Shown here in pieces: positions 4,504 to 64,000 of a DNA stretch of 64,000 nt; within the stretch, counting starts at the first letter, position 1; each line of letters starts with the position of its first letter. Both the position numbers and the translations under genes were made by a program. The notes beneath the pieces are model-generated. The model was given only the letters and a program-made list of their open reading frames with translations, was not told where the DNA came from and did not search any database. This stretch comes from Marsupella aquatica (lineage: Eukaryota; Plantae; Marchantiophyta): assembly GCA_973895155.1 (NCBI GenBank), contig OZ316893.1:14972645-15036644 (forward strand), written 5' to 3'.

Positions 4504-4710
4504 CCTTAACGAGTACTTTCAGATGGCAGTTAGGCCGGGGTTTGCTAAGAACTCTCATATGCAAGAAACACTAGTTCAAGCAGCACCTAACCGTCCAGAG
4601 CTTGGCCCTTAACGAGTACTTTCAGATGGCAGTTAGGCCGGGGTTTGCTAAGAACTCTCATATGCAAGAAATACTAGTTCAACCAGTACCTAACCGTCCA
4701 GAGCTTGGCC
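4504..4710. repeat. 103-bp tandem duplication
   Basis: CCTTAACGAGTACTTTCAGATGG... starts at 4504 and again at 4607. The units are nearly identical and include RecA intron-11-like sequence. Confidence 0.9.
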
Positions 4711-21600: not shown

Positions 21601-22655
21601 TTTCTGGAAACTAACACCGCCCACTTACGTGAAATTCAGGCGCCACTCAATGGAACACTCCACAAAGCGATTCACAAATGGGCCATCAGATTGAATTGGC
21701 AGCCCCACCCACGGACGCTCTGGGCTGATACATGGCTACCTTTCCGAGCTGCTAGCGAGAATTGCTACTTGTGGCAACTGATTTACAGGATACCTGCAAC
21801 ATAGCACTGGAGGTTCCCGAGACTACCATCAACCAATCCGGCCACCTGGTGCACCCGGTGTGGCACTAACCAACAGGAAGATATCGTTCATTGCATTTGG
21901 AGCTGCAATCAGTTGCAAATAGTCTGGAGGTGGGTTCATTTTGTGCTACAGCTATGTGCTTGTTCTAGGGGAAATCTTATTCACCTACAGCCAGTCCACA
22001 TTTTTGTTGGGGAGCCCCTACCGGAGCATTGGGACGTCCCCATGAAGCTGTGGCATACCTTAAGGGCCATTATCTGCTGGAACTTGTGGAAGGACAGAAG
22101 TACCCACTTCATTGAACACACCCGACCCCACCCACAAGGAGTTATCAGAAAATCTTGGCATCGACTTGGAATCTACCTACGTCGTGATTGGGGCCGGATT
22201 AAGGTTCGTATCCAGGTTGGAAAGATCACTTCAAGGGAGGCGCACAACGAGATGACGTTTCACTATGGCACCTGGGCTGGCCTTTGGGAACTCCATGAGG
22301 AATCCCTTCAAGTCCCACCTGTACCTCCACGACCACCATGAGTCACTTTGGTTGTTCAGGTTAGGAAGTTGCACTACAGACTGATTGTTTGGAGCTCTGC
22401 TCCCGCATGGATCCACTGGCAGGAACCCCGCCGGAACCTGGTCACTGGCCGGTCTTTAGGAGTATGCTGCTCCGACTGTAGTTTCTAAATTACTTGTTTA
22501 GTTGCCCCTTATGGGCTCAGCTTTCTCCCTGGTCCCGGCCCCACCGGTTTCTGCATGCTGACCTCCGGTCCCTTGGGTTGGTGCCCTTTGTGGGCCCCCC
22601 CTTTTTGTATGTTGGCTATTTGAATGGAATTCATTTGGTTCTTTCGAGGTAAAAA
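18684..22655 (+). mobile_element. 5'-truncated L1-type LINE retrotransposon (copy 1)
   Basis: 19-bp TSD AATATCATAGGGGCTTCAC at 18665-18683 and 22656-22674, short poly(A) tail. Contains an endonuclease tail (RLDRIY...SDH), RT motifs (PGPDG, RPITLLN, KLDVAKAFD, VRQGCPLSP, LYADD) and a CCHC knuckle (CTRC...HCIWSC). Confidence 0.95.
18703..22341 (+). pseudogene. LINE ORF2 remnant (endonuclease tail, RT, zinc knuckle) with three in-frame stops
   Basis: Single reading frame interrupted by stops at 18916, 19045 and 21802. Ends QVPPVPPRPP*. Confidence 0.9.
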
Positions 22656-30300: not shown

Positions 30301-31473
30301 CCATTTTTCTTGGCTGCGGTGTCCTTAGTGGCATGATAGAAAGCCGCTGACCTAGCTTCAAGTGCGCCTTTGTCTTGGTCTCTATTCTGCTGAATCTTGC
30401 TCCTGCAAATATTCCGGGCAAAATATTTCCGCTGACCTCGGAAGGAGGACTTTCGAAACCTTTTTTTTTTTCTGCACAGTGGTATGGGTGTTGTTACCTG
30501 TGAGCTCTGACATCCGAAAACCTGTTGCATAACATAATCGTATTTGGACCATTAAGCCTCAGAGAGCCTAAAGCTGGATCGTTTCCAAAGAGAGATTATT
30601 GAGTATGTTGTCCGGCTGCATACAGGTCTCCAGGCCATACAAGCAAGCTGAGTTTGACATCCTGTTTGGAGAGGGGATTAGTACCCTTGTAAGTAAAACT
30701 TGCGTGTCCCTGTTTTTGCTTTTAAGCCAAATAAATAGTTTCGTGATTTCTGGGTTTGACGGATTTCACCTAAAGCATAATCTATGTTCGTGCAGGGATG
30801 TATTCTAGATTGTGCTGAACAGCTTGGAGTGATTGTTAAAAAGGGATCGTGGTACAGCTTCGGGGAAGCCAGGTATGTTCCAAGTGCATCTGGATTGGGC
30901 CAAGCTCTGGACAGTTCCTGCTGGTTGAACTACAGTTTCTTGTATGTGAGAATTCTCAGAAATGGATGTCACTAGCATATCTTTAGCCTTCGCATTGGTC
31001 TAAAGAGCCATTTTGGGAAGCATCTCTGTATGATCTACGATAACGTGCGATTTATCGTTTCTGCAGGTTAGGTCAGGGTAGAGAGAAAGTCGTACAGTTT
31101 TTTCGAGAAAACCAAGATGTCTGCAACAGCGTTGAGCAGGTCTGATTGCATCTTCCTTACTTTGAACAACTACTAATGTGGTTACGACTGTGTACCTGTT
31201 ATCGCTGCAATTTCCTTGAATCTAGGTGGATTCCAGCTTTCAGATTTTGGATCAGATGTGAAGTAGTCATGCTTCGTGAAGGCGCGTCGCAATTGTCCAA
31301 GGCATCATTTATAACAATTTTAGCTTCTTTGTCTACAGCTTGTGCGGACCAAAATTGCAGAGGAAATGAGCTCTAGAAGGGATCATTTGTCAGCGCATTC
31401 CTGGGCCCCAGTTGATGTTGAGGAGTCTTTTGATGTAGAAGACAAAGAAGAGGAAGCTCTTGTAGAGCTCTGA
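27350..31473 (+). CDS. RECA: Plastid-type RecA recombinase, 13 exons: 27350-27574, 27876-27967, 28271-28346, 28642-28704, 29010-29139, 29336-29421, 29565-29690, 29793-29897, 30201-30257, 30626-30688, 30796-30872, 31067-31139, 31339-31473
   Basis: All introns are GT-AG and the frame is continuous. Motifs: [24 protein letters not shown], Walker [50 protein letters not shown]. The N-terminal extension looks like a transit peptide. Confidence 0.95.
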
Positions 31474-33020: not shown

Positions 33021-35824
33021 TTGCTTAGGACATTTAGTCCCAACTAGCTGTAGGACATTTAGTGGGTGGGGGAGGGGCTCCATAAGGCTTTTGTGATTAG
33101 TGAAGGTTCAAGGTGAGGCTCAGTTAGGCCTGAAGCAATAGCGCCAAAGCAAGCTAGGTGACATTGTGGAAAAGGATCATGTGAGGCATTGCAACAAATA
33201 TTAAGTGTTCAAACCTTTGAATTTTGGCTGGACTACTAGGCTGGATGTTAAGACATTGGGAGGAAATGGCCCAAACCCTTGGCTTGACCCTGCCACCTGT
33301 CAAGGGCAGCTATTTTAGCTATTTTGGGAAATAGTTAGAGTTGCTATTGTCATTTGTCACCAGAGGAGATATCGGTGAAGATTTAGGATCCAAATTTCTT
33401 ACATGAAAATCCTACCATCATATTTCTCTAAAAACTTAGAGAACCATACAATCTTGGTTGAAATAACCCATTGGAAGTAGTGCAGCTAATCTCTCCAGTG
33501 TGTTGTTTGCGAATTTTATCTGCGCCAAAACATTTTTTGAAGGTGGAATTCAGCGCCAAAGATTCCCCATTCTCTGTCGTATATGATCAGGAGATGCACT
33601 TGGACAGAAAAGGTTTGAGTAGTGGGCCCCTGCTAGGCTATTTTATTATCTGGCAGACAATGCTCAGCTTGTTTTTGCACTGATTCATGCTCAGCTCATT
33701 GTAGCCAAGAACCTGTGCTTGGTTACTTATAGTAGCCAACTCATGTTTGGCACATGTGAGATGAGGACTCAGCTATTTGCCGTATGGGCAAACTAATCAG
33801 CGTTAGATGAGTGAAATAGATGAGAGAGAGTAAAGCTATTATTAACCCAAGACATGCTTAGATGGGTATAAGCACTAGCAATGCTCCAATGAAGGAGACT
33901 ATACCGTGGATATTCCAAGACAGCTACAGGAGATAAATATGGGAAAATTAGATATGATTGGATTAAAGAAAGTCTAAGGGTGTGAGCTACAATCCTTTGC
34001 CACTATATAAGACACTCTTATCTTTCATTGGACCTAACCTGAACTGAAATGTTTTTCTTGGAAGGCTTGAAACTATAAGGCACTATTATATAAGTAGTGA
34101 TCTTGTGAAACTCAAGACTTTCTAAAGACTTCAATTGGAATGAGAGACAACATGCAGGTGGAGACTGTCTTCTCATGTACTGATCTCACAAAACTCAAAA
34201 CCAGAAATTTGTGGTCATTGCTGACCCTACTAGTTGGCCCGCTATAGGGACTAGTGTTGCAACGGCTGGCCATGTACCAGGCTGTGCTGCAGCAAGGGTT
34301 ACTCAACGTAAAGGAGGAGGCTTATGGTGTGCATTAACATGGGGACCTTTTATACACGTTTGTTGTGGAGGTCTTTGGGGTGCAGCTACACCCGAGCTTT
34401 GACCGTTTCATTATGTGAAGCAGAGGCCATACCCCGGGTGCATGATTGTTTGTTATCACCACCATTCTATAGACAACGGGTTAGGTGTCTGTTGTGCTTG
34501 AGCAATCAGAGACATTCACTATTCTTTGTATGGGTGATGCGGTTGGTTTTAGGGCCTCTAGACAGATTCCCTTGCTTGACCCTCCTATGCAGATCACACC
34601 TAGAGCTCTACCAGGCTCTTCAATGCCAATAGGTAGGTTAGGGGGGCTTTACAAGAACTCTGGGCAGCAGTTCCGTTTTTTCTACATTAGCCATTCAAAT
34701 GTGGGAAATTAATGGCCACACTTCACTTTACATGAGCTTGGGGGCACAATCAGGCAAACTTATTACCAATCCTAGTCATCTACAACTGGGCCCCTTGTGG
34801 GTCCATTTATTTTTGCTGATGTGTACATTTTTTGGTCAAAAACTTAGACCGCCTCTTGAGGTGGTCTAAAAGAATGGAGCACATGGCTTCTATTCAGGGT
34901 ATTGCACTTGTTATCTCCGGGCCTGACACATTTTGGCACAGGGATCTTACCTTTAGAATATGGAACTTGCCCTAACTTTGCTGTGGAGAGATATTGAACG
35001 GGCTCCACCAGACACTGAATGGCCCCATCCATCTTGTAGAGCCCTCCTTAGGTTTTTTTTGTCCCTGGGTCCTTATGGCTTCTTGGCCCTTTGGTTGTCC
35101 CCCCTTGATTGGGTAGTTTGGGTGTGCAATCATGTGTCCTGGTTGGGCAAGCTTTTGTTTTTTGCAGTTTGAAATAATCATATGAACCATGGGATCAGAA
35201 ACCAAAGCCCAGGTGGACCTCCAGTTTGGGTTTAGGGTTTAAGGTTTTGGCCCAGATGGACTGGCAAAGCTTGGATGGACTTGCTCATAACATTTAAACT
35301 GACTCAGATAACACTGTTTACACTTTTGATTGAACGTGACCTATAAACGGTGTCCTACCTTGACAACATGATGACCTTGAACCTGAAAGACTTCAAGACG
35401 TCATGCCGTTTACTCAGGATCACTGTGACGTCTTGACCACTTTCTCCCCCAAGGTAGTCAAAGTTGTCAACTGCGATCTGCGACTGGTTCCTTTTTCTTT
35501 TTGGTGTAAAAGCAATGATCCCTTTTACGTAGTCCATGGGGACGGGCAGGGACAATTGTCTCATTCCATCCGGGCTTTTGTTTTGTGGGATCATGTTTAG
35601 GTTTTTTGTTTTTTCCTAGTTTGAAATATATGAAATGTCAATGCATCATAGTGGCCAAGGGCAAAAATGCCGGACTGGGAAACATGATCCCGAAGGCAAA
35701 GCAACCCAATGATAGGGAGGAAAAGAGGGGAAGGGCCCCAAGAAAAACAGCCAAGGGGTCCTCAACCCAAAAGCCTACCAAAGAACAAAGACAAAAAAAT
35801 TAACCTACACAGGAGCTAACACCC

Positions 35825-36390
35825 TAGTGAGGCAGAGAACTGAAAAGCCTGGTACATGAAAAGCCTAGTAGAGCTCCACAATAAATCAAGCTGAACCTGT
35901 GGGGAGGCCCTAAACTGGGAGGCCCTAAACCCAACTCTTTGAGCCCTAGAAGGAGGGTGAAAGCTTGGGCCAGCTGAAAGCTAACTGAAAAGCCTGGGTG
36001 ATGAAAAGCCTGGTAGAGGTCCACAATAAATCTAATAGGAGGGTCACTAAGCTGGGGAGGCCCTAAAACCAACCCTCTCAGCCGTAGAAGGAGGGTGAAA
36101 GCTTGGGCCAGCTAAAAACCAAACCAACTCTGTGAGCCTAGAGGAGGGTGAAAGCTTGGGCCAGCGGAAAGCCAAACCAACTCTATGAGCCTAGAGGAGG
36201 GTGAAAACTGGCCCTCTTTGAGCAGTAGAAAGAGGGTGAAAGCTTGGGCGAGCTGAAAGCCAAAGTGATGTGGTGCCCTAGAAGGAGGGTGAAGACTGGC
36301 CTCTCCGAGCCCTAGAGGAGGGTGAAAACTGGCCCTCTTTGACCCGTAGAAAGAGGGTGAAAGCTTGGGCGAGCTGAAAGCCAAAGTGGT
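35825..36390. repeat. Degenerate minisatellite array
   Basis: About eight recurrences of (C)TAGA(A)GGAGGGTGAAAGCTTGGGCCAGCTGAAAGC and variants. Confidence 0.85.
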
Positions 36391-36423
36391 GCACATACAA
36401 AGAGCTCTCGATACTCAAGAAAC

Positions 36424-36910
36424 AGATCGTCCTGGAGGGCGTCAATTGGAAAGACCATCACTCTGCAGGTGAAGAGCTCCGAACTGGCTTGGACACTGTC
36501 GATAGGATACGGGCCAAGATTCAGGAGAAAGAGGGACCGAGTTGCAACAGAGCAACAGCGATTGAGTTTCGCTGGTAAACAATTACAACTCGCGTGCACT
36601 CTCGCGGATCACGACATGACCACAGAAGTCGATGGTGCATTTGGTATTGAGGCTTCGAGGCAGGATGCATATATTCGTGTAAGACTCTCACCGGGAAGGT
36701 GATCATAATTGAATCGGAGCGTTCTGTCACCGTCCTTGTCCTCGAGAGGAGAGTTCGAGCCAAGATGGAGTTCCCATGCCTTTCCAAATATTTGCGTACG
36801 CCAGCAAGCAACTACAAGAGGAGCGCACTCTTGCTGATTACAAAGTCCGGCTGATTACAAATCCAGAAGGACTCGACCTTACAACTGTGGTACAGGCTCG
36901 GAGGGGGTCA
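36424..36910 (+). pseudogene. Decayed polyubiquitin-like sequence (two ubiquitin units)
   Basis: Across frameshifts it reads GKTITLQVKSS, DTVDRIRAKIQEKEG, EQQRLSFAGKQL...TLAD, LRLRGR-MHIFV, KTLTGK, KQLQEERTLADY. Confidence 0.8.
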
Positions 36911-47500: not shown

Positions 47501-49599
47501 ATTTGTGTATGTATTGTGCGAATATGGATGGCATTACAGTAAGTAATAACATTTTTGGTGGAGTGATCCTGCCTGACACTTTCTCTGTTTTACCTCTGAA
47601 ATGTTAGATTGCAAGATCTCTAGTAGTGAATACCAGCGCCTCAACAGATGCTTCCTCATTAGAGTACATTCATGCCACACTACAGTAGATGTGTTATACA
47701 TCATCACACTGTGCCACTGAGAGCATTCTTATTTTTTAGTTGTTCTTCTTTGGGTTTTGTGTTTGCCCTCTTCTTTTGAATTTCCTGTTTGTACCCCGGG
47801 GTCCTCACTTCTTTTCTTCCTGCCCACATGAAGAAGTTAGGGGCTTTTAATTAAATTGTGCAGAAAACTTTTAAAATTGTGATGAAGAAATATAGGGGTG
47901 TTTTAATCCAATTTTGAGAATTATAAGAACGTACTATAGGGGTTAACAAGTAGTAAAAATGAAACATGGTTTTGATCCACAAATTAGAACCACCCTTCTT
48001 CTAGGTGTGTAACTGTGTTCAGTCTTTTGTGACCAACCCCCTTGGTCACAGGCCTGGTACTAGTTTTATCCTCCTTCAAGGTGTGCCTTGAAGTTGTTGG
48101 GTTCCTAGGTCCCTTCCACATTTGAAGGGGATTCATTCGAGTAATGCCTTTCACTAGTCAGTAATGTATGCTTTCATAACAAAAATGAACTAAAAAATTG
48201 TAAACCCATCCTTAGTTCAGGGAATCAAATGGCCTTGACTTCTAACATTTCCAGGAGTCAAGGCTTGCACTTTGAACACACTGCCTAACTACTACAATGT
48301 GAACTTGATAAGTGAAATCTGGTGATAGATGCAAGTTATTTGTGATTAAATTGTTAACTCTTAAATGGGAGACAGCAAACACAAAACCCAGATGGACACA
48401 ATCCAAATTAAGTTGAGATTTTGATTGTCTAACACACTTCTTATTTGTGACCTGCAAGGAGGTGTCTTACGGGGACCAGGAGGGTTTGGGTTGGTCCTTC
48501 CTGTATTCTGTCCATGAGGCCGATTTTCCTTCCTGCGACAAAGGCTTGAGTCCTTACAATGCTTTGGTGTAAACAAACAGGAATTCCTTGACAATGTTCC
48601 CCCACTCTATGTAAACAATTTACATGTCTTATGAATTACGTTCAAAGGGATCTACAGTCAAAAGGTTTTCCACCACCTGTTAATGAACCTCTGCACCCAA
48701 TGTTGTAAATGCCACACTCAGCTCAAAAGTATTCCACCAATGGTTGTGACTCCTGAGCAAGGTGCAACCCTACATCCATATATCAGATCGTTTAAATTGT
48801 GGCACTGGTAATGATTGGCCAAGCAAGGGTCTCTTCGACAGATAAGTACCCATCTTTGCAGCTGAGAAAGGCCGGGGCATTTGAGGTTGTGGTCCATGTT
48901 TGGTTGCAGCCAATAGGGCGTCTCAACCCTATAGCTTTGCGGGCTCCATCTGGCCACCCGGATGCCTTGGGTCGCTTCACAAAAATGAACATTGGGACCC
49001 AAAATCGGGCACTCCAAAAATGGAGGTTGAACCTTGACTCGAACCTAAGTTAACTCAGTCTGTGACGGACAGAGTGTAAGTCCGGATCATAAAAAAAACC
49101 GGTAAGAAATTTGCAGGAGAGAACTTGGTGGAACAACCACCTGATTTGGACGACCCGGGTCACGGAACTACCGGGTGTCCATCGGGAATGCACGAGTTTA
49201 TCTTTGAGATGCCCTAATGTTGCATCTCTTTTGCAGCCACTGTATTGATAATTATCCATCCAGAATTCACAATTTTACAGCCAATGTTCCCAGGAATTTA
49301 CAGTCCTTCACTTCTCACATTTTGCAGCTCACAATGCATCCGGATTTTTGCAGCCAAACATTCAAAGATTACGCAGCAAAAAGATTACAGATCTTGCAGC
49401 TGGTGTATCTGGTTGATGCGAGGAAGCTTGGGATCAAAACATATACATGGCAACATTCAGAATGTGGTAACAGTAGAGGACTAGGGCATATGCATCCAGT
49501 CGGGCTGCTTCTTATAGCCAACTCTCCAGGACCAGCGCGATGTTCAAGCATTCTCGTCAACATGTCCGTCGGGTGAAGGAAGGAAAAACTGACAAAGAC

Positions 49600-52500
49600 A
49601 CGATGGATTGGAGAAGGTGATAAATGCTCCAAGCTTTTCTTCCGTAGCTTAAAAGGATTGGCCAGAACTAAGGAAATCAATGAATTGCTCACACCGGATG
49701 ATCGGGTGATCAGTGGGTGGGAAGATCTGGCCACCACGGCTACTAACTTCTTCCAAGAAATTCTTGGTCAAACTGCCGGCTCTCACTGGGAGCAGGTGGC
49801 AAATGTTCTAGCACATCAGACCAAATGCATTACTTTGGCAGACCAGAACTTATTGAACGCCCCCCTCACGGTGGCTGAACTTGGGAATGCGGCTACTACT
49901 CTTGCCAATCACAAGTGTCCTAGCCCCGATGGGGTCCCTGTAGAATTTTTCACTGCCAATTGGACGATGGTGGGTCCTTCACTTCATAGAGCATTGCTAC
50001 AGGGTATGGAAGATGGGAATTTCTCACCTGATATCACCCGTGGCTTGATTGTCCTTCTACCAAAGAAGGATGACAAGCGATCTTTATCCAATAAGCGCCC
50101 CATAACCCTCTTGAACGTGGCCCACAAGATTGTAGCCAAGGCTTTGCAGATGCGTCTCACTCCGGTCCTACAAAGGTACATTTCGCCTCAACAATTCACC
50201 TTTCTTCCAGGACGGAACATCCATCATTCCCTAATGCTTCTCAATGAGACGTTGCACCATGCGGAGGCCTTTGGGATGGAATACATTTTGATGAAATTGG
50301 ACGTCATCAAGGCCTTTGACAAGCTGGAATGGCACTTTCTCATGGCTCTTATGGAGAAGGCTGGTTTCGGTGGGCTTCTCACGCAATTTATGGTGGCAAC
50401 ACATGCTTCGGCGTCTTCAGCGGTACTAATCAATGGGAAAATGGCTTCACCATTCTGCCTGCCACGATCTGTGAGGCAAGGATGCCCCCTTTCACCACTA
50501 CTCTTCCTCATTGCAATTGACTCGCTTAGTGCCATGCTTTCCTGGGAGGTCGATAGGGGTCTGATACGAGGAGTCGATATCCAACACCTGGGGGTGCACA
50601 ACGTGCACACTGTTAGTCTATTTGCTGATGATATTGCATTGATTATCCGGGCTGTGATGCAATTCGTCGACCGCTGTAAGCAGGTCCTGGACCTCTTTGG
50701 CTTAGCCTCCGACCTATTCTATGCCTGGGAGAAAACCAAGGCTGCCTTCATCTCCCCAAACAGGGTCCCACTTGAATTCAGACGTCTACCTTGGACGTGG
50801 GAGGATGATCATAACGCCATGAAACTTCTGGGGATCCCTCTCGCCCAACATATTTCGGAAAAGCAAATGGTCCAAACCCTATCAGAGAAGCTTGAATCCA
50901 ATCTGGATCGAGTCCGTAAGACCTATGGCTCTCTTGTCGCTCGGGTAGCTGTGGCTAATCACCTTGTTCTGAGCACCCTTTGGTTCTCACTTACTGTTTG
51001 GGCCGGCCAGCGCTCCACCCTGGATAGCTTACAAAAGAAAATCATTGCCTTTGTGTGGGCAGGACAGAATCTTAAGGCTAGATCCTGGGTGGACCTTGCA
51101 ACTATCACCAAGCCCAAGAAGCATGGAGGCTTGGGGTTGATCTCTTTGGCTGCGCAATTCCGGGCCTTGGCAGGAAACTTCATTATCTGGGCGTTGGCTA
51201 AAGGGGAGCACCCCTTAAGGAAGATTCTTCAATATGAAATCAGGCGTCTTTCAATACAGAAGTGGGGAGCGGATGATTTCACATGGGCCTTCACACCATG
51301 CCACACTCTACCACGTGATGGCTCTCGGGTTTGGGTCAACATTTGCACAGCCTGGAATGTCCTGAAGAAACACTTACGTCCCGCACCCCCGGGGCATTTG
51401 GAAGGCTGGAGCGACCTCCCCCTCTGGGGCCCGCACCTCAACCACATCAACTCCACGTTGGCGAAATGTCATAGTAACCTTCAACGTAAAATCCAGAGGG
51501 CCGGCTTCCAGTTTATGCGGGATGTCTTAGATGCCAGGGGCAATTTTATCAGGTGGGAGGACGGTCCCCGTGACAGGCTGCCTGGCAACTGTGCTTGGGC
51601 TTATCAAAGGATGATTGACAATCTTAAGTCTGTTCCCGAGCTGCACAGCGATCCCAATGAAGTTATCCCGATCTATGTGGAGGTAGCGCTACCTAATGGG
51701 ATTCAGTACATCTGGGAATATTTGACCCAGCGCAGATTCATAACGTCCCAATGGCATTTCTCCCAGGACACCTCCTCCCCTAAGAGGACTTTCAAGGTCA
51801 CTAATGGCTTCCTGTGCAAGAACGACAATTTTGCTCCTCCAACACAAACACTCTTGCACCGGGTACTTGTTCGAATACAGGGCACTGGAAATCGTCTGTG
51901 CGTTGGAAGACCTACAGGCACCCTTGCCCCCCTGCTGCAATACGAGTGGAAGGATGGTCTTCCACTCCTGGACACTTCCACAGCCCACCTATGCGAATTA
52001 CAAGGGCGGCACCCGGACATCCTACATAAGGCAGTACACAAGTGGGCACTCAGACTAGATTGGACCCCCAATTCTCAAACACTGTGGACATGCACCTGGC
52101 TCTCTTTCCGCGCGGCAAGAGAGAATTGCTTCCTCTGGCAATTGATTTACCGGATTCCAGCCACGCAACACTGGCGATTCCCCAAGTCACCAATGACTGA
52201 TCTGGCTATCTGGTGTACTAGATGTGAACAAAATCAACAAGAAGACATTGTTCACTGCATCTGGGAGTGCAGTAAGTCACAAGTAGTTTGGTCATGGCTC
52301 CAATTCATTTTGAGACACTGCGCCTTCACTCAAGGGAACCGAATACAGCTACTCCCCGCTCACATCTTCGTCGGGGCCCCACTACCGGATGAATGGGATG
52401 TACCTGATAAACTCAGGCACATCACCAGAGCTATCCTCTGCTGGCACATCTAGAAGGAGCGGTGTGTGCATTTCATCGAACACACCAGGCCCAATCCACA

Positions 52501-53023
52501 AGGGGTTATCCAGAAAGTATGGTATCGACTCGGCATTTACCTCAGACGTGATTGGGCCCAGCACAAAACCAAGATTCGCACGGGGAAGTCCACCTTCAGC
52601 GAGGCCCACCACGCAATGTCTCGGGATTATGGCACATGGAATGGACTGTGGCTCCTCCATGATGATATCCTCCAAGTCCAACCGGTCCCCCCACGTCCCC
52701 CTTGAGCAATACGTCACTGCAGGTTTTGAAGCTGCACTACTGCTAGACTGATAGAGTGTTCCCACCTTATCATGGATCCACTGCAAGGGACCCCACTGGC
52801 CCTTTGCACTGGCCGTTCTTTGGGAGTGTGCTGCTCCCATTGTAGTTTCCAAATCCCTTGTTTGGTTGCCTTGTAGGAGGCTCAGTTTCTTCCCTGGTTC
52901 TGGCTTCACCGGCCCCGGCACCTCGACCTCATGGTCCCCTTGGGGGTGCCCTTTTTTGGGCCCCCCATTTTGTATTCTGGCCTTATGAATGGAATTCATT
53001 TGGTTTTTTCGAGGCAAAAAAAA
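49600..53023 (+). mobile_element. 5'-truncated L1-type LINE retrotransposon (copy 2, diverged relative of copy 1)
   Basis: 16-bp TSD AAAAACTGACAAAGAC at 49584-49599 and 53024-53039, poly(A) tail. RT with LFADD and a CCHC knuckle. One premature stop at 52451. Ends QVQPVPPRPP* at 52705. Confidence 0.95.
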
Positions 53024-54074
53024 AAAAACTGACAAAGACGGAAAAAAAACCGATGGAGTCTAACCTGACGTAATGCCTGCACCGTTAGCTTCCGTTAATG
53101 AGAGATGGTAACGGGGATGGTAATCCATTTTGGGTGTCATTAATGATTGATCGTACACTAACACTCTACTGAGTCCATCTGGGCCGTCCCAACAAACCTC
53201 TGTGTCCATCCGGGCTTCTGTTTCTAAATCGCAACTCCCTTATTACTGCAATATATAATCTTCAACAAATAAGAGAATGTTTTCTGGTAAGACAAATTGA
53301 TAAGTGCATTAGCAATATTGGGTCATAATTGCATTAGCAATTATCCCCATTAAGTTTAATGAAGCTAACTTAATATAGTGCAATATTGCTAATGAGCCTC
53401 AATGCCCATTTTTTGAATATTAATGAAATGATGACAAAACCCATAGTGCATGTCATCATTTGAACATACATAGTATAACATCATCCTTTCCATGCACTTA
53501 AATTGGGTGGGCCCTCGAGTGATAGTCTAGAGGCTTCACTCTAGAAGTCTAGACCCCAACTATAGCTTCTCGTTGTGCTTTATAAGTAAGACTGCAATGA
53601 CCTGTAAGCATTTTGAATTGCCCTTGAATGTATTGTACTTATTGAAGGTGCAGTGTATTGACTTAGTGTCAAGAAACCTGATAAGTGCAAAGTCCTCATT
53701 AGGTTGCACTTATTAATTTGTGCAATCTGGTTAATTTACTCCAATCTTTGCCATTGTAGATTAGTGCAAGAAGATGGCTCTATCCAAGCCCTTGCACTTA
53801 CCCTGGTCTCACTGCACAACGAAGTGTTCTGGCCACCTCACCATTATTTTCTTAGGTGGCCAAAAGTTTGCTAGATTGCACTTTAGTGGGGAGCACTAAC
53901 CCCTATCCAGTTTTAATGCCTAGCCACAGCCCCATTCTGAGGGTTATCCTTAAATTTAGGGACATCTAATGGTCATGCATGATCTTACAAGAGTAGAAAG
54001 GGAATCTTCTGACTATCTTCTCCTTTGCCCAAGGGGACATTAGCCACAGTCAGTGGCTAGAGGGGTGGCTAGAG

Positions 54075-54740
54075 GGAAATAAAGCTTCAAAACCCTGCAC
54101 CCAGCACTAGAGGTTAAGCCACATTCCCCAAAGAGTATAATAGAAATAAACCCTCAAAACCCTGCACCCAGCACCAGAGGTTTAGCCACGCTTACCAAAG
54201 AGTATAAAAGAAATAAACCTTCTAAAAACCCTGCACCCAGCACTAGAGGTTTAGGGCCAGGTTCCATGGGCCAGGGGCAGGGAGTATGAGCACTCCCTCT
54301 GACACCCCCTGGGGCCCAAAGACATCATATGCCAAGGTGTTTATAGTATTTTAAATGTATGAGTTTTGATTTAGGAGCCAATGAGAATAACTAATGAGAA
54401 TGCCCTGTAGTGTTCCTACACAGGAGCACAGGGGTACCCTTGAAGTTTAACAGGGAGTATGATTTTAGGAGTGTGAGGGAAAATCATACTCCCTACTACA
54501 ATATTTGTACACCCTTCAGTCCCGGGAAAAGCTGCAATCTTGTTGGCTTAAAAATCAGGACTCCTGCCCCATGGAACCCAGCCCTTAGCCACGTTCCTCA
54601 AAGACCGTAAACGACATAACAGCATAAAAGACATAAACCGCTTTAGTCAGTCTCCTCAAAGGGCATAAAAGATATAAACCTTCAAAACCTTGCACGCAGC
54701 ACTACAGGTTGAGCCACACCCCGCCAAAGAGTATATGAAC
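54075..54740. repeat. ~67-bp minisatellite interrupted by a MITE
   Basis: AAATAAAC..TCAAAACCCTGCACCCAGCACTAGAGGTT(T)AGCCAC occurs three times before 54254 and again after 54587. Confidence 0.8.
54254..54584. mobile_element. Tourist/PIF-Harbinger-type MITE (331 bp)
   Basis: TIRs GGGCCAGGTTCCATGGG / CCCATGGAACCCAGCCC (15/17 match), TTA TSD at 54251-54253 and 54585-54587. Removing it restores the repeat unit GGTTTAGCCACG. Confidence 0.85.
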
Positions 54741-55469: not shown

Positions 55470-58400
55470 ATGGCGACCGATGGTGGAGCGCTGCACCAAT
55501 TCGGCAACATTTTACTGGGAGGCCGTGGTGGCATGGTAAACATCCGTTCTCATTTTTCTATTATCCTTCCAGATAGTTAATGACCTAGCTGAGGTTTTTG
55601 TTCTGGCCGTCGTGGTAGCGAGTTCAGATTGTACAAGCTGGTCTCCGGCCTCCGGTTCTTGTTCTTGTTAATTTGTTAATGCGTGCATACTGTCGGGCAG
55701 AACCCAGGGCAGCTCAAAATACATGCAGGTGGATTCGTATGGAAGAAAACAGGAGGTGGCAAAGTCGTGGACGTGTCCAAGGCAGACGTTTCTGCATTGA
55801 GTTGGACACGACTTCCGAGAGGATACCAGCTGGGGGTCAAGATGAGAGCTGGCTCGAATGTCAAATTCAGTGGTTTCCGTGAACAGGTGTGTACAGGACT
55901 GTCCACAAATGGTATCGGTTCTCTCGCTATTCCATAACGTTATGGTTTGCCGTTTCATTTCAGCCAGTTCAGCTTTATCACGCTGAAAGCAGCTGTCACA
56001 GCTCTTGCTTGAGCCTCTATCTTCACGGCCTCTCCTACTTCTAATGAAAAGTGTTGTTGCCGAAGATGGTTTGTCAATATATCTGCTTGTGATTTATTTA
56101 CAGGACGTTTCCAGCTTGAACCCTTTCTTGGAGGCAAATTTGGGAATCACACCCGAAGAAAAGCCACTTGCAATAAGTGGCCGCAACTGGGGGGATGCCG
56201 AATTGGATGGTACGTAGATGAGAATCAGTTGTGCTCAACAGGGTTTTGGATTTGTCCTTGGTTGGCTTGGGATTTAATTTTTTCTCAATGGAGCGCAATA
56301 CTTCAGAGAACTGGTTAGCTTTGGACCCACCTCGTTTGGTATGTTGACTTCCATACTGCAGGAAACTAAAAACAGGAAGTGTCATTTTGTAGGCAACATG
56401 GTGTCCTTCGTTGTGGGCGGGAAGCAGGCCTTCGAGGTGTCCATAGCTGATGTGAGCCAGACCCAAATGATGGGGAAAAATGACGTAGTTCTGGAGTTTC
56501 ATGTAGATGATACGACTGGAGCTAATGAGGTATTTCTTCTGCTTACCAGTTGCGTTGTAGTTTTACTTTCTTGCTATGTCACACTCAGTCCACTCTCATT
56601 TTTGAGGTGTCCTTCATTACAACTCGCGAAGTGTCTCTGGTAAGTATAGATGTGCCCCCAGTAGCTACCTATTAGACACTCTCACATTTCTTACATCTTT
56701 TTGTGTTGCAAAACGATTATTGGCTCAACTTAACACTATTCTGCTACGGATCCAATCAATTTATAGTTGGCATTCCGTAATACTTATGTGGAAAACTGGT
56801 GTAGTTCTCATTTCCATGAGTTTGATGTAGTCCAAAGATGGGGTTGTGCTGCAGGAGTTTTGCGTTGACATTTGATTGTACTGTTTTGAATTTGTTTCTG
56901 TAGAAAGATACTCTAATGGAGCTCAGCTTTCATGTTCCGAGTACAAACGGCACGTATATTGGAGACGAAGAGCGTCCATCAGCTCAAGTATGGAAGTTTA
57001 CTCTGAAACTTTCCGAAACTAAACATGTTGCATGTAAGCAGCCTTGGGCATGGGTAAATAATGTGGGTGAGTCTAGGGAAAGAGCCTTCAACCTTCGGGC
57101 AGCAAAACGTTCGTGAGAGTGGAAGGTTTAAAGGAATGCATGAGGGTATCATATAGTGTATGTGCGGCTTATGCATCATATTGAACGCTGGAGAAGTTGA
57201 CGTGTTGAGAAACTTCGAGTCAGCTTTTGCATGGTTTTGGATGCCGGAGTAATTGCATATGTGACATGCCTTTGGCTCATGCATGGTTTGGACTATGTGA
57301 GGGGGTCCAGGTGTTTTTTGAGAAGATAAAAGGGTTCGCTGATCTTTCATCAACAGGCACAGATGCCATTGCATTGTTTGAAGAGATAGGTGTACTCACT
57401 CCGAGGTAAGACATCTGCATTCAGGGTTCGTATTAATTGTATTTCCAGCTTTTCATGTCAGGTCTTCCGTGAGAAGATCTTGTCGATGGCGGACGTTGGG
57501 CCATCTGGGGCAGAAGCAATTGCTATGTTCGTTGAAGTTGGTATCCTCACACCCAGGTATTTATGATGTGAATGTATATCTCATCTAGTGTGAAAGTAGA
57601 CTATCGATGAGATATCTGGGTGGTGAGGTGTCCGTGGAGAATCTCAAGTGTTATGTGAAATACTTGGGATATGTACCAGACGGCATGAACTCTGACATGT
57701 GCATTTTTAATTATGTGGTTTGGTGCAGAGGGAGGTATAATGTTGAACTTCACTTGTCATTTCTGCGACTTCAAGGACAAGCAAATGATTTCAAGATCCA
57801 GTATAACAGTGTTGTCCGTCTCTTTATCCTTCCTAAGGTAGACTTCTTTGGTTTTTTGTACCTTTCAGTTTTCACGCACAGCTCAGCCAATATTGTTGGA
57901 ACAGAGGAGTCTGGGTCCCTGTAGACATATTATTTATACCTTCCTGCAAATTTCAATGAGCACCGCGGAAGATGCTCACATTATCCTGACCTGTAGGAAT
58001 GATGTGCATTTCTTCTAATTGAGGTCAACTAGCTCTTGAACCTCCACTGTCACTGAAAGATGGGAGACAAAAATAGCCCCTTTCCCAACACTCTTTTACT
58101 TTTTAAGGAGATATTTGACTAATCATGGTATTTAAGTATTACCAGAATGTGGTGATTTGAATGGTGTAAAAACATTTCATAATTCAATGATCTATGCAAC
58201 TTGTGACGCTTAGTTTTCTCTTCTGGTTTTTATAGACGATTGATTTCAGTCTGACAAAACATATGCAGTTGTCGTCTTTCAATTCGGGATAACATAGTTA
58301 TGCAACATTGCTGTTTCCCTGGCAGTCAAATCAGCCTCACACTTTTGTGGTCATCACACTGGACCCACCTATCCGCAAAGGCCAGACTTTTTACCCGCAT

Positions 58401-61400
58401 ATTGTTCTTCAGGTGAAATGATGCCTGAATACTCTGATTTTGTCTTACATTTCAGCTGTGCTAAGTCTACATATATTTCTATTCACAGATTATCCCTTCT
58501 ACTTCTTGCATAGGTTCATGAACTTCATTCAATATTTGGGTAAATTACACCCTGTACATTATTTCGAGTAACTTTTGTTTTTCTTGCTCTATTGGCTTTG
58601 ATTGGCAGTTTCCTTCAGAAGAGATAACTGAGTGCAGTCTTTCGATTCAAGAAGACCTGCTGACTACTAAGTACAAAGATCGGCTCCAGCCCCACTACAA
58701 GGTATAGTGAAGTTAAAAGGGCTTTTGTTGAAATGTACGCTGCTAGGCTGAAACTTGACCTTACGCGGACGAGTCGTGGTCTGGCTTGCAGGATCTTTCT
58801 CATGATGTCTTTACACAAATTCTCAAAGGACTATCTGGTGCCAAGGTCACAAGACCCGGAAAGTTTCGAAGTAGTCAAGATGGCTATTCGGTACGGGCCT
58901 CATTAAAGGCCGAGGAAGGGACTCTCTATCCCCTAGAAAAGAGCTTCTTTTTCTTGCCAAAGCCCCCAACTCTTATTCTGCACGACGAGGTACATTTCCT
59001 TTCAAATTCGTTTCCTTTGCTCTCTGTACATATCATCTGCTTAGAATGCTAATGTACTAAACGACAGTAGCGTTCGTAGCCACACAGTCCTCCAAGTCTC
59101 GCAAGACTCTGTTTGGATGTCCCCCCCGGACTAAGGGTCGCTCCCAGGTTAGTTGGTAAGAATCGCTTCCTATCAAAACTGCAAATTATATGCAGCGAGC
59201 TGCCAACTTTAACACCAGTGAGTCTGTCGACCTCTTTAAGTGAGACTAATTCAACTTTGTCATGCCCTTGCAGATTGAGTTTGTTGAATTTGAAAGACAT
59301 GGTACCGCTGGACCCAGTAGTATTTCTTCACATTATTTTGACCTTCTGATTCGCCTGAAGAGTGAGCAAGAACATCAATTCCGCAACATACAGCGGAATG
59401 AATATCATAACTTGTTTGATTTTATAAGGTTTGGTGCACTATTGTCTTTTACCTTCTTTGTTCAATATGCTTCTGTTGATGTTGGGAATATTGGTAATAA
59501 GAAATAGAAGTGAGCTGTTGATATTATTTGTACGATCCACCCTACTGATTAGAGTTGACGGGAATTATTACGGGATCTTGGTTCGCTTTTGAGTAGTACT
59601 ACTCCATGTAAATGGAACCGCTGTTTATATCTGTTTGAGTTCTTCTAAGCAGATGCATAGATTGAAATGCTTCTGATTGTAAGAAGAAGATTTAATAAAG
59701 AATAGTAGATTGTGTTACAATTTCCGTATCATGGATTAAATCGATCCTGCGAATCATATTTTTAACCGGAGGTATGACTAATAAGCATTGGAACGTGACT
59801 TTGATTTCAACCGATTGGTAGAACAAGTAAGCCAGGATGAATGTGGAACGTGGTTTTGTTTTCGACGAATTGGTAGATCGAGTAAGCCATGATGAAGTTT
59901 CTATCATGTCTTGTACAGGTAAAAAATATTTGTAAAAGTAGTTTGACGTACCCACCTAGGTTTTTTCTCACAAGGGTGGTGATGTGTGATTCTTATCCAG
60001 TTCCAAAGGGTTGAAGATCTTGAATCTTGGTGATAATGCACAAGGTGCAAGTGGAGTAGCTGCTGCCTTGGAAGCCTCAGATGACGAAGGTGTGGATCCA
60101 CATCTGAATCGCATACGTATTGCCAGGGGAGCTGGTGACGGAGGCGGAGATGACAGTGACGAAGAGGTACGTGTCTGCATGGAACTCGTCTAAAGAGGCA
60201 ACACTGCCTTCATTTTATGAGACGGGCACTTTTCTTGGATGGAATATTGTCAACCATGCATCCTTTAGTTCCAGTTGTAAGAGTGAGCTTCCTAATTGTC
60301 CGACCCAGCTCACATCCTTGCCTCTCTAGCGGTGACGAGGCCTCAGTCCCATTTTTTCCCATTTGTTTATAATTGAATCTACTTTCCAGTTTCTGTGAAA
60401 GTTTGTTAGACACCTTTTGCAAAATCACGGATTTCATCGGTATCATTTATAATCATTTTAAGCTTTCCTCGTTAGAGACATACTAGCTAATATCAACAAT
60501 TGATCCTGTTGCAGGACGAGGACTTCGTTGCAGAGAAAGATGATGCCGGTTCCCCCACGGACGATTCTGAAGCAGAAGAACCAGATGCCAGTGATGATGA
60601 TGGTGGTGGAGGTAGTGAAGAAGACGAGGATGAAGAGGAAGAAGAAGAGGTAACCTGTGACGCTGTATCTATATGGTCATGTTCGGAGCAGAGCATTCCT
60701 TCTAGAGGCCATGTGTGTTTAGCGATGGTCGGTGTGAAACAGAAATGGCTGGGCGGGGGTTGGGATTCGAAAACCTGCTTAACTGTGATCTTTCTCGAAG
60801 GTCTGACTCGAAGATGGCTTGTCTTCAAAACTCTTTGTGGCAGGATGAAAGACCAAAGAAGAGAAAGAGAGAACCTGTTGCTGCAAAGCCGAGAAAGACG
60901 AAAGCAAAAGACGATGCTGATGGAGGAAAGAAGTCCAAGAGGAAGAAAAAGGATCCGAATGCGCCTAAAAGGGGTCTATCAGGATTCATGTACTTTTCTC
61001 AGTCTGAAAGAGAGGTATGTCTAGGGTGACAACACAACTCATTGTGTCCAGGTTTTGTTTCGAAGCAATGATGTCTCTGTTGAAGAGGCATTTGAGAAAG
61101 TTTTATAGTGCATATGCACTTACTAAGCGCATGCAGATGTTGATTTCTAGATCTTTCCATGGCATACATGTCCTTCGCCACATGATAGAAGCTGAAGTTG
61201 TTGGCGATTGTTTGCAGAATCTGAAGAAAAGCCAACCGGGATTATCTTTTACTGAGACTGGAAAGGTTCTTGGAGACAAGTGGAAGAAAATGTCAGGTAG
61301 ACTCAAACAGAGACTGAACTGTAGGTTATCAGATCTTGATCTGGGTCTACGCATGGTCTATAACCCTATTGGGTGTAATGGCTCTTCATTTACTCAAGTG

Positions 61401-61603
61401 ACCTGCAGGAAAACCTTGCTCCAAGCCTTGTTGTTCTTGTCCTCGCAAGTAGCTTATCTTATGGGTTATCGTTTTCAGGTGAGGAGAAAGCGCCCTTTGA
61501 AGCCAAGGCAGCAGCAGACAAAGAAAGGTATAAACGAGATATGGTCGAATTCAATCGTGGGGGGGCTGCACAAGTAGAGGACGATGGATCCGATGACGAC
61601 TGA
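55470..61603 (+). CDS. SSRP1: FACT complex subunit SSRP1 (PH/SSrecog/Rtt106 domains, acidic region, HMG box). Exons: 55470-55535, 55701-55886, 56104-56209, 56393-56529, 56904-56987, [57311-57405 OR 57462-57556], 57729-57837, 58326-58412, 58609-58701, 58792-58989, 59274-59428, 60001-60166, 60515-60649, 60844-61014, 61218-61296, 61479-61603
   Basis: [59 protein letters not shown], acidic tract, [22 protein letters not shown] box. GT-AG introns. Confidence 0.95.
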
Positions 61604-62779
61604 TCCACCAGTATACAGCCTTGTTAGGTTGTTTTAGGAGGAGAAACAAGCATTTACGGTGGCAGGTCAGATTGTTTGGTCTGTTGGAGCCTCAAGAAAC
61701 CAACGACCCTGGAGTATGTTTTGTTGCGCTGAGTAGTGGTCATGAGTGGAGATCAGTAGAGTGCTCAAGTTTTACACTGATCGTGAGATTGGACCACGAA
61801 GAGCGTTCACACGAACAGAAGGGCCTATTAGTCGGTTATGGAGGTGGTTTGTCAGAAAACACTTCTCACATGATGTACTGAATTAGAGTCAGTTCTTCAG
61901 ACCAGGTTAGACAGCATACAGGTATAGAGCAGGTGTTCTGGTAGCTACTATCGGACAAAAATATTACTTAAATGGCAGGTTGAGTAGACCTTTCTCGTCA
62001 AGTTTCCACCTTCTTTGTAGGCTGAGGTGGTTGTACAGCAGCAATTTTGAAATGGTTTGAACTTCCAGTGGGTTGTTTTTAGGACTCGAGGTATCCTACT
62101 CATTCCTGGACGGAAGTGAGTAATGCCTGTGATGGTTGGACTGTTATGGCTGCCGTGGTTTTCATGGTATTCCTGTGTCTAAATCAGGACTCTAGGTGCT
62201 AATCCCTTCATAGCTTTTTACTTGCTCCTACTATACGTCCTAGTGGCACACCGTATAACCAACACTTCATTATAAAAGACTCTAGAAGTCTCGGTGATCA
62301 AAGTGATAGGCTAATGTCATCAAGCTTGATACTGGTGGTTGTTCAAAGCAAGGCAACTAGTGGGCATTTTTGTTCATTGCGGAGGTGCACATTGAACTCT
62401 TTAGAGACTAGCAGTCAAACGAGGAGCAAACACCCCGAATCAGACAATTCTTAGATTTGGTAGAACGTAATGGAAGGAAAAACATAATTCACGTGATAAG
62501 CAGATAGCAAAGGATCATTTTCAGGATCCCACTATAGTGGCCACGCTCGTTGCCTAATACAATCTGAGTTCAAGATTTAAGGTTCAATCGTGTAATGTAA
62601 TCTTATTTATAGAGCGGGAAGCTAAAGTTGAGATCTAGAAGCAGCTAGACCGAGACTCTAGGGCCCTACCAAAATTTATGTTCATGGAAAAATTTATGTG
62701 CATGGAAACAATTAGTTCAATTATCCTTTGGTTATGTAAGTTTATTTTATTGAACTATTTAGAGTCATGAAAATTTGTA

Positions 62780-63395
62780 CATTCAAATAAATAGATGAGA
62801 GTACAAAGATTAAATGAAAGAATCTAAATGAATTAATTTTGAGGATAGACAATTCCATTCAAATAAATAGATGAGAGTACAAAGATTAAATGAAAGAATC
62901 TAAATGAATTAATTTTGAGGATAGACAATTCCATTGAAGGCAACAAATATGACTACATTCATGATAATAGGAAGAGTAAATCTCCATGCAAAAAGTTTCT
63001 CTTAATATTTGTGTGTATACAATATATAGTAAATCTCCATGCAAAAAATTTCTCTTAATATCTTTGTGTGTATACAACATATGTAACATTAAGCAAAATA
63101 TTATCTTGTACATAGTAGTTACAAGGTATTAGAGTCCCCTGTATTACTCTACCCATGGTAATTATTCCTCTGCCCATAGTAGTTAATTTTGAGTATATTT
63201 AACTCAATTTCATTGAAGACAAATATGAGTACATTCATGCTAATATGGAGTCTCCATGCAAAAAGTTTCTCTTAATATCTTTGTGTGTATACAATAACTC
63301 TAACATGACATATAGTTTAGGTAAAATATTACTTTGTACATAATAATTACAAGGTATGAGAGTCCTCTGTATTTCTCTACCCATATTAGTTATGG
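62780..63395. repeat. AT-rich tandem duplications (76-bp pair at 62780-62935 and longer imperfect duplicates)
   Basis: CATTCAAATAAATAGATGAGAG... at 62780 and 62856. TCTCCATGCAAAAA.TTTCTCTTAATAT occurs three times. Confidence 0.8.
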
Positions 63396-63399
63396 TATT

Positions 63400-64000
63400 T
63401 AAAAAAACACACAGGGAAAGCCCATCTCAACCCAATCTTTGCATTCACAGTGCCTTGATTTCACATCTAGGGCCCATTGTCCTTGGGAATCACACATCAA
63501 TGCAGTCGTGGCTGATGATGGACGCTCATCCACCCCCCCGGCTTTTGTGTATAATGTATTCAACATCCATGTTGCATGTTGAGTCAACCTATTCTCACCT
63601 GCAGGCCAAGCTATAATATATGCACATATGCATAAATTAATTTCATTGCTCACAAGTCTGCGGTCATGCAAGAATAAAATGTAAGTATTGAAAAGTTAAA
63701 AATCTTACTTGCTGCATCGATTGCTCTGTTGTAATGCTTGGTCATTGTGTAGTCCCACAGTTCCTTGCAGATTAGCAATGCAGGCAACTTGCGAATAGGT
63801 TTAATTACTCCATTCAAAATCTCCACTACATTTGAGGTAGTATGACCCCACCTACATACCAACATGAAGAATCATCAAAAACCCATAACCCTGAACATGG
63901 TACAGTTTATAGGAAGCTGGAAATTGTGTTGGTGCTTTACCTTGGTACTGGAAAGGCATGACGTGAGTATAGCTTTGGGTCAATGGCTTGAATATATCTA
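63400..64000 (-). mobile_element. MULE (Mutator-like) transposase remnant running off the window end
   Basis: RWGHTTSNVVEILNGVIKPIRKLP resembles the MuDR-type TxNxxExxN...R.LP segment. ALDVKSRHCECKDWVEMGFPC is a truncated SWIM finger. Confidence 0.75.

What the first reader, a model, noticed from the sequence alone, without database searches (positions are those of the whole stretch)
57311..57556. Tandem duplicated, probably mutually exclusive exons in SSRP1 (two FACT isoforms from one gene)
Seen: two paralogous exons. A (57311-57405) encodes [33 protein letters not shown] (57462-57556) encodes [32 protein letters not shown]. Both are exactly 95 nt, stop-free, phase 0-to-2 and AG/GT-bounded, and either joins ...ERPSAQ to GRYNVE in frame. 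Including both or neither shifts the frame. The spacer is only 56 nt, and B's candidate branch point (TATTAAT, ~57431-57437) is ~30 nt from A's donor. Established: tandem duplication with such short donor-to-branch spacing enforces mutually exclusive splicing sterically, and this mode is rare in plants. Inference: many shared residues use different codons (TTT/TTC, ATA/ATC, ACT/ACA, CCG/CCC) with no indels, suggesting an old duplication with both copies under selection. A has a weak polypyrimidine tract, so it may be the regulated minor form. The swap changes the linker and start of the SSRP1 middle domain, so two FACT variants could exist (e.g. tissue- or stage-specific).
Basis: partly seen in the sequence, partly recalled or inferred. 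Interest (0 to 1): 0.88.

Follow-up and report, generated by a model that had tools for sequence, protein, structure and literature searches.

The report
Ancient either-or exons in liverwort SSRP1
The gene for the chromatin chaperone SSRP1 in what is likely a leafy liverwort carries two intact side-by-side copies of one exon, each joined to the upstream exon in a relative's likely-RNA contigs, so one gene likely makes two versions of the FACT complex's hinge, a pair likely kept since the Devonian.

Summary
Confirmed and extended. A (57311-57405) and B (57462-57556) are homologous 95-nt exons of an SSRP1 gene. Either gives 663 aa; both, neither or a retained spacer give early stops. The gene is closest to Calypogeia fissa, whose two annotated SSRP1 proteins carry A (31/31) and B (31/31). 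All 4 Marchantia/Riccia proteins held that cover the segment are A-type; mosses and vascular plants are B-like, and 60 of 60 testable non-liverwort loci have one copy. So B is ancestral, A derived, and the pair likely predates the Devonian liverwort split. In one likely-RNA run of a relative, exon 5 joins A and B, B joins exon 8, and no A-to-B joint appears. The A-to-exon-8 joint is only inferred from contig breakpoints. A 56-nt spacer with a predicted branch point 31 nt from A's donor likely blocks A-B splicing; retaining it gives an immediate stop. The swap changes the last helix of PH2 (the SPT16-binding domain) and the hinge to the middle domain. Not shown: both productive isoforms from one gene copy, regulation, functional difference, or whether Marchantia keeps B. 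No report found in the searches run. New member of a known kind.

The parts
55470..61603 (+). SSRP1 gene, coding span; 16 exons per isoform plus one alternative; 663 aa with A or with B
   Evidence: model; joints seen in run X1 up to 59272; Pfam POB3_N and Rttp106-like_middle on window exons
56904..56987 (+). exon 5, common upstream exon (donor phase 0)
   Evidence: joints 56987>57311 and 56987>57462 in X1
57223..57310 (+). 3' part of intron 5, alignable in the relative where the rest of the intron is not; candidate control region for exon A
57311..57405 (+). exon A (derived copy), residues 194-225
   Evidence: 31/31 with C. fissa P0125, 23-24/31 with Marchantia and Riccia; joint 56987>57311 and a contig over 57311-57406 in X1
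57406..57461 (+). 56-nt spacer; opens with an in-frame stop if retained
   Evidence: retained in an X1 contig of depth 15.2
57433..57437 (+). predicted branch site for B (branch A at 57436, 31 nt from A's donor, 26 nt from B's acceptor)
   Evidence: motif scan; no difference listed at 57431-57445 in X1; not mapped
57447..57448 (+). second acceptor AG 13 nt upstream of B, joined to exon 4 in X1; out of frame (172 aa)
   Evidence: joint 56527>57447 with cut +2, depth 18.1, side 28; loose end equal to the end of exon 4
57462..57556 (+). exon B (ancestral-type copy), residues 194-225
   Evidence: 31/31 with C. fissa P0003, 26-27/31 with most moss proteins held; joints in and out in X1
57729..57837 (+). 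exon 8, common downstream exon (acceptor phase 2)
   Evidence: joint 57553>57727 in X1, side 69

Best explanation
A and B are intact tandem copies of one SSRP1 exon that are likely spliced either-or, so that one liverwort gene likely makes two 663-aa SSRP1 proteins differing at 14 residues in the last PH2 helix and the hinge to the middle domain. Shown: anatomy and frames; A- and B-type proteins in public liverwort gene models; exon5>A, exon5>B and B>exon8 joints in contigs of a relative; a single exon in the non-liverwort loci held. Inferred: the single ancestral exon duplicated in a liverwort ancestor before the Marchantiopsida-Jungermanniopsida split; A diverged in a burst and was then held by selection. 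Exclusivity likely has two layers. U1 at A's donor and U2 at B's branch site, 31 nt apart, cannot work on the same intron, so A is not spliced to B. Leaks (retained spacer, A+B, skip of both, exon 4 to 57449) all end in early stops and would be removed by nonsense-mediated decay. The two proteins likely keep one fold and tune how the SPT16-binding PH2 domain sits against the DNA-binding middle domain; untested.
For: Frames. Window A and B each 31/31 with C. fissa proteins while residues 1-440 outside the segment are 397/408 identical. Six window-A residues occur in 0 of 63 distinct non-A plant segments, and Marchantia/Riccia carry the same or a like residue at most of them; A-type clade 100/99 on a 0.65 stem. 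Synonymous sites between A and B saturated (pS 0.76, pN 0.28). No second copy in 60 of 60 testable loci. X1: joints 56987>57311 and 56987>57462, both GT..AG; B>exon 8; no A>B joint among the 4 joints listed. The A contig ends at 57406 and the exon-8 contig of the diverged gene copy starts at 57727, the two breakpoints an A>exon-8 contig would give; 12 pieces explain all depth bins to within 0.5. In that copy A differs at 1/96 and B at 2/95 nt against 59/483 in constitutive exons (Fisher 3e-4 and 1.6e-3). Donor-branch distance 31 nt is under the 50-nt criterion of PMC5740500.
Against: No contig with the A>exon-8 joint was laid. X1 is one run, of another species, RNA by guess, laid at 80% likeness; the two exon-5 joints have sides of 28 and 30 letters, under the tool's 31-letter bar. 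In X1 one gene copy shows only exon5>B and the other only exon5>A, so no single copy is seen making both. About half of A's depth continues into the retained spacer (15.2 of 29.5). The C. fissa and Marchantiales sequences are gene models whose RNA support and DNA I could not see. The AU test does not reject window A+B as a clade (p 0.074, 31 columns). A is less conserved against Marchantia than the rest of the folded region (24/31 vs 377/407, p 0.010). In the nearer X1 copy B is not significantly more conserved than other exons (2/95 vs 31/699, p 0.41).
Confidence: 0.78

Rival explanations
1. In leafy liverworts exon A works mainly as a dosage switch: choosing A leads to spacer retention and an immediate stop (225 aa, PH1-PH2 only), lowering SSRP1 output; the full A protein is incidental.
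Against: A has no stop or gap and keeps 24/31 residues across two liverwort classes; full-length A-type proteins are the annotated forms in 3 Marchantiales species and one C. fissa copy; contig breakpoints fit an A>exon-8 path.
Confidence: 0.09
2. No regulated switch: each lineage or gene copy has fixed one exon (Marchantiales A; one copy A and one copy B where the gene is doubled), and the pair is a slow exon replacement caught midway.
For: 4 of 4 Marchantiales proteins are A-type; the two C. fissa models, on different scaffolds, are one A and one B; in X1 each copy shows one exon-5 joint; genome duplication is reported in Calypogeia (PMC7257191).
Against: The window locus has both exons intact, each 31/31 with C. 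fissa; an unused exon would not survive from the Devonian in a single gene. The X1 copy that joins exon 5 to A still keeps B at 2/95 differences. Contigs drop minor paths, so one joint per copy shows no absence.
Confidence: 0.11
3. A is a dead or recent duplicate, or an assembly artefact.
For: AU test does not reject a window A+B clade (p 0.074).
Against: Whole stretch in one DNA contig of X2 (possibly the window's source) and in a contig of organism C with no listed change in A; saturated synonymous sites; A-type proteins in 4 liverwort species; exon5>A joint.
Confidence: 0.02

Closest known systems
Homologous mutually exclusive exons from tandem duplication, as defined by Hatje and Kollmar (PMC5740500, PMC3923563; passages read)
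   Same: Neighbouring exons of equal length, same frame, compatible splice sites, homologous, same structural region; length not divisible by three; donor-to-branch distance under 50 nt (57 of the human clusters, 9%, per PMC5740500).
   Different: A bryophyte case in a core histone chaperone; 'SSRP1' does not occur in the main text of the human atlas. Kassiopeia predicted 99 internal candidates in Arabidopsis, none annotated as such in 2014.
Plant enoyl-CoA hydratase/isomerase exon 3/exon 4 pair (PMC2277414; passages read)
   Same: Conserved exclusive exon pair in plants, conserved bases at degenerate codon positions, and one paralog (At4g13360) that fixed one exon and lost the other.
   Different: Exons of unequal length (65 and 53 nt), angiosperms, no duplication stated in the passages seen; the present pair is equal-length, homologous and likely older.
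Arabidopsis FLM/MAF1 exclusive exons (PMC3266260; passages read)
   Same: Two alternative internal exons change an interaction region of a nuclear protein.
   Different: There the second exon is a recent cryptic exon (19 vs 15 aa) limited to MAF1-3, not an ancient duplicate.
SSRP1/Pob3 subunit of FACT (PMC8639466, PMC6028955; passages read; PDB 9EH2, 6UPK, 7NKY)
   Same: Domain order PH1-PH2-PH3/4-acidic-HMG; the exon aligns to human residues 180-211 across the PH2 (101-195) / PH3 (from 196) border.
   Different: No exon-swap isoforms of SSRP1 were found in the searches run; six window-A residues are absent from the 63 other distinct plant segments held.
MpCLU exon 22 (bioRxiv 10.64898/2026.03.13.711532; abstract and outline read)
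   Same: A single-copy liverwort gene whose splice forms stand in for paralogs.
   Different: Cassette skipping, not a duplicated exclusive pair; function tested there, not here.

Membership tests
homologous mutually exclusive exons (Hatje/Kollmar criteria) | similar length, same reading frame, compatible splice sites | tested here: met
   95/95 nt, phase 0 to 2, AG/GT
homologous mutually exclusive exons (Hatje/Kollmar criteria) | sequence homology, same region of the protein | tested here: met
   17/31 aa, BLOSUM 89 vs next 32 of 127,810 windows; both fill residues 194-225 in P0125 and P0003
homologous mutually exclusive exons (Hatje/Kollmar criteria) | junction from B that bridges A (exon 5 > B) | tested here: met
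   56987>57462, GT..AG, depth 94.5, side 30, one contig of one likely-RNA run of a relative
homologous mutually exclusive exons (Hatje/Kollmar criteria) | junction from A that bridges B (A > exon 8) | tested here: inconclusive
homologous mutually exclusive exons (Hatje/Kollmar criteria) | no A-B joining, unless it shifts the frame | tested here: met
   A+B shifts the frame (327 aa); no A>B joint among 4 joints listed, though contigs cannot show absence
steric-interference subclass | donor to branch point under 50 nt | tested here: met
   31 nt to the predicted branch A; the whole spacer is 56 nt; branch point predicted, not mapped
RNA docking-site/selector subclass (Dscam type) | competing RNA pairings | tested here: inconclusive
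   57200-57600 folds no better than shuffles (z +1.09); only short imperfect inverted repeats; no multi-species DNA for covariation
poison exon (AS-NMD) | inclusion of the exon itself brings a premature stop | tested here: not met
   A alone gives 663 aa; only spacer retention or A+B stops early
poison exon (AS-NMD) | unproductive forms rise when NMD is blocked | not testable with these tools
   needs upf mutant or inhibitor RNA-seq
SSRP1/Pob3 | POB3_N, SSrecog, PH1_SSRP1-like, Rttp106-like middle and HMG box in order | tested here: met
   all above cut-off in P0003, P0125, P0002; 2 of 5 single window exons pass on their own; best PDB and fold hits are SSRP1/Pob3

The most novel reading that the evidence does not exclude
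Liverworts have run two FACT complexes from one SSRP1 gene since the Devonian by swapping the PH2 helix and hinge, with a regulated switch; Marchantiales then fixed the derived exon (so the model plant's FACT differs from that of other land plants at this hinge), and where the gene was doubled the two copies split the isoforms between them.
Probability: 0.25. Interest if true: 0.82.

Novelty: new member of a known kind. Interest (0 to 1): 0.62.

Why it matters
FACT is an essential histone chaperone usually treated as one fixed heterodimer. A natural, long-kept swap of 14 residues at the PH2-PH3 joint is a ready-made test of what that joint does for SPT16 binding, SSRP1 self-association (which needs PH2 and PH3 per PMC6028955) and nucleosome handling. 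Duplicated exclusive exons are seldom documented in plants (169 of 19,045 events were called MXE in Riccia fluitans, PMC13642808), and this one looks very old. Annotations show one exon per locus, so the pair is easy to miss; Marchantia offers genetics to swap A for B.

Tried and rejected
No whole genome is held for this window, so copy number of SSRP1 in this organism is open. No run on record as RNA was listed for the stretch; that blank says nothing on expression. A protein search with exon A plus upstream intronic codons found nothing at E<=10 among 7 candidates (weak). A region search with P0125 184-233 gave 21 proteins and no further liverwort cluster. The metagenome scan gave no liverwort locus among 80. 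The profile search of 1.84 billion representatives never ran, so further A-type fragments were not sought. PDB and Pfam searches with the 31-aa exons alone gave only chance armadillo hits or nothing. The AlphaFold model is low-confidence overall (pLDDT 59, residues 199-211 under 50) and was used for secondary structure only. RNA structure as the exclusion device: no support. I first took the joint 56527>57447 for a misalignment; its loose end matches the end of exon 4 and abuts an AG, so I keep it as a likely real unproductive splice. Gene conversion between the two X1 copies could also explain the low divergence of A and B; not excluded. The Riccia fluitans supplement gave only the SSRP1 expression row; its file was cut before any MXE table. 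Blasia supplement: nothing on SSRP1. Catsnap text: nothing relevant. Earlier findings of the scan: none in 3 look-ups. No complex was folded: no SPT16 sequence was at hand and one job cannot compare A with B.

Full report
OBSERVATION. A 17-exon model gives 663 aa with A or B, 327 aa with both, 196 with neither and 225 with the spacer retained, because the spacer opens with a stop in A's frame. Among 127,810 31-codon windows, A is the only real match to B (89 vs next 32).

WHAT THE GENE IS. A search with a downstream exon gave 544 proteins at E<=0.001 of 576 candidates, 120 listed, led among full-length single-match hits by Marchantia paleacea and Calypogeia fissa. Over residues 1-440 without the segment, the window protein is 397/408 identical to C. 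fissa, 377/407 to Marchantia and about 82% to mosses. The organism is therefore likely a leafy liverwort near Calypogeia (inference). C. fissa is Jungermanniopsida; Marchantia and Riccia are Marchantiopsida. Pfam, PDB and fold searches give SSRP1/Pob3.

BOTH EXONS IN RELATIVES. C. fissa has two annotated SSRP1 proteins on different scaffolds. They differ at 16 residues, 14 of them in this segment: one is 31/31 with window A, the other 31/31 with window B. M. paleacea, M. polymorpha (two models) and Riccia sorocarpa are A-type (23-24/31 to A, 15/31 to B). Of 174 proteins held, 156 show the segment without gaps and 5 are A-type, all liverwort. Window A's residues at 196, 200, 202, 205, 206 and 208 occur in 0 of 63 distinct non-A segments (whose printed numbers are one too high). 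In an 18-row tree of the 31 columns, window A groups with Marchantia and Riccia (100/99) on a long stem, while B sits among mosses and vascular plants. The AU test does not reject a window A+B clade (p 0.074), so the tree alone is not decisive. Synonymous sites between A and B are saturated (pS 0.76, pN 0.28).

OUTSIDE LIVERWORTS. The metagenome scan matched 407 stretches; 84 were relatives and 80 were kept, none liverwort. I dropped 20 (spliced, or lacking a flanking exon). In the other 60, one of them partly spliced, the exon is single: the best second-copy score is 13 against 89. Four have the segment of Sphagnum proteins, two are fern-like, the rest angiosperm-like; these labels are inferred from the peptide. 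Nine grass-like loci with a shorter exon score poorly in this ungapped test, but their introns (82-102 nt) leave no room for a copy. Hornworts and Haplomitriopsida were not sampled. A shared derived A in both liverwort classes, beside an ancestral-type B, implies that both exons were present before the classes split, 'likely in the Devonian' (PMC9516144, passage). Whether Marchantiales still hold B I could not see.

SPLICING EVIDENCE. Five runs were listed, none on record as RNA; I laid 4 of them. X2, X4 and X5 cover introns as DNA; X2 may be the window's source. In organism C a contig over 57117-58199 shows no listed change in A. X1 (organism A, RNA by guess) covers exons and shows GT..AG joints at the modelled introns. 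On 56930-57800, 12 contigs were laid and 4 joints listed: 56987>57311 (14.8, side 28), 56987>57462 (94.5, side 30), B>exon 8 (98.2, side 69) and a gap inside a retained, diverged intron 5 (6.8). The sides of the first two are under the tool's 31-letter bar and likeness was set to 80. Seven contigs were printed; I placed the other five from the joints and loose ends, fitting two depths, and all bins close to within 0.5. Reading (inference): X1 holds two gene copies. The nearer runs exon5>B>exon8. The other, about 12% diverged, runs exon 5 to A (or through the retained intron); A (29.5) then continues into the retained spacer (15.2). The A contig ends at 57406 and this copy's exon-8 contig begins at 57727. 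These are the breakpoints expected if a roughly 57-letter A>exon-8 contig exists but was too short and diverged to be laid. An A>B splice would break one base later and was not listed. The k-mer overlap logic and the loss of minor paths in assembly are recalled knowledge, so neither the A>exon-8 joint nor one-exon-per-copy is shown. A further joint links exon 4 to an AG at 57447-57448 (18.1) and is out of frame (172 aa).

RNA-LEVEL CONSTRAINT. In the diverged copy, A differs from the window at 1/96 nt and B at 2/95, against 59/483 in four constitutive pieces (Fisher 3e-4, 1.6e-3). In the nearer copy B is not significant (2/95 vs 31/699, p 0.41). About 90 nt of intron before A align in X1 where the rest of the intron does not. 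This fits splicing control elements; gene conversion between copies is an untested alternative. No stable RNA structure stands out (z +1.09, 89 of 100 shuffles fold as well).

MECHANISM. The spacer is the shortest of 16 intervening sequences and its one branch-like motif lies 31 nt from A's donor. PMC5740500 (passages) counts under 50 nt as potential steric interference, and PMC2277414 (passage) notes that plant introns under 70 nt tend to be retained, which matches the retained-spacer contig. So A and B likely cannot be spliced together, and every leak ends in an early stop that NMD would likely remove (recalled rule, untested). What chooses A or B is unknown. A's acceptor is pyrimidine-poor (40%, tied lowest of 16) and lacks a YTRAY motif, as do 5 other introns; its donor matches the consensus at 7 of 9, tied best.

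WHAT THE SWAP CHANGES. The exon aligns to human SSRP1 180-211, across the PH2/PH3 border at 195/196 (PMC8639466, passages). A low-confidence model puts a helix at 192-202 and a strand at 214-221. Eight differences fall in the helix and hinge, six in the start of PH3. At 196 and 200, one turn apart, B has R and L and A has F and K; yeast Pob3 aligns Y and K there. PH2 binds SPT16, and PH2 with PH3 supports SSRP1 homodimers (PMC6028955, passages). I infer one fold with a tuned interface or hinge; no binding difference was tested.

KNOWN OR NOT. It meets the published criteria for homologous mutually exclusive exons except one junction, which is inferred. Searches for 'mutually exclusive exons'+'SSRP1' (8 papers), a five-term bryophyte search (97 papers, 30 listed), 'SSRP1'+'Marchantia' (5) and five gene or isoform phrases (0) showed no report of it; these were seen as listings only, as were. 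Most subscription journals are not searched, and the splice-event tables of PMC13642808 lay beyond the held part of its supplement and could list the event. Other papers seen: PMC3923563 (passages), PMC3266260 (passages), PMC2277414 (passages), PMC7257191 (passages), PMC10952736 (passage), bioRxiv 10.64898/2026.03.13.711532 (abstract and outline), PMC13182070 (supplement search).

VERDICT. Real, old and apparently unreported: a new member of a known kind, in an unexpected gene and lineage. Best reading 0.78; interest 0.62.

Noticed in passing
window 19048-22338 and 49577-52702 (+): Two related long reading frames with a reverse transcriptase domain (Pfam RVT_1), 65% identical over 864 aa; likely non-LTR retrotransposon copies.
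   Followed up: partly
window about 4700-6030 (+) and 28700-30930 (-): An inverted, diverged duplicate stretch about 23 kb apart, seen as many cross-matches in all frames.
   Followed up: no
window 8085-9179 (-): 365-codon open frame with a VQ motif, likely a VQ-protein gene.
   Followed up: partly
window 14402-16525 (+): Two adjacent long open frames (265 and 442 codons) with no Pfam family above cut-off.
   Followed up: no
window about 35800-36600, 54000-54700, 62750-63430: Clusters of short degenerate tandem repeats.
   Followed up: no
P0001 (Adiantum nelumboides, 811 aa): SSRP1 model scoring 218 bits against one 66-aa exon, suggesting an internal duplication of the middle domain or a merged model.
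   Followed up: no
L004-L011, L013, L014, L071, L078-L080: Angiosperm-like SSRP1 copies with a strongly diverged version of this same exon, so the segment also varies between paralogs elsewhere.
   Followed up: no
window 1-64000: No tRNA gene and no Rfam family at the gathering threshold.
   Followed up: yes
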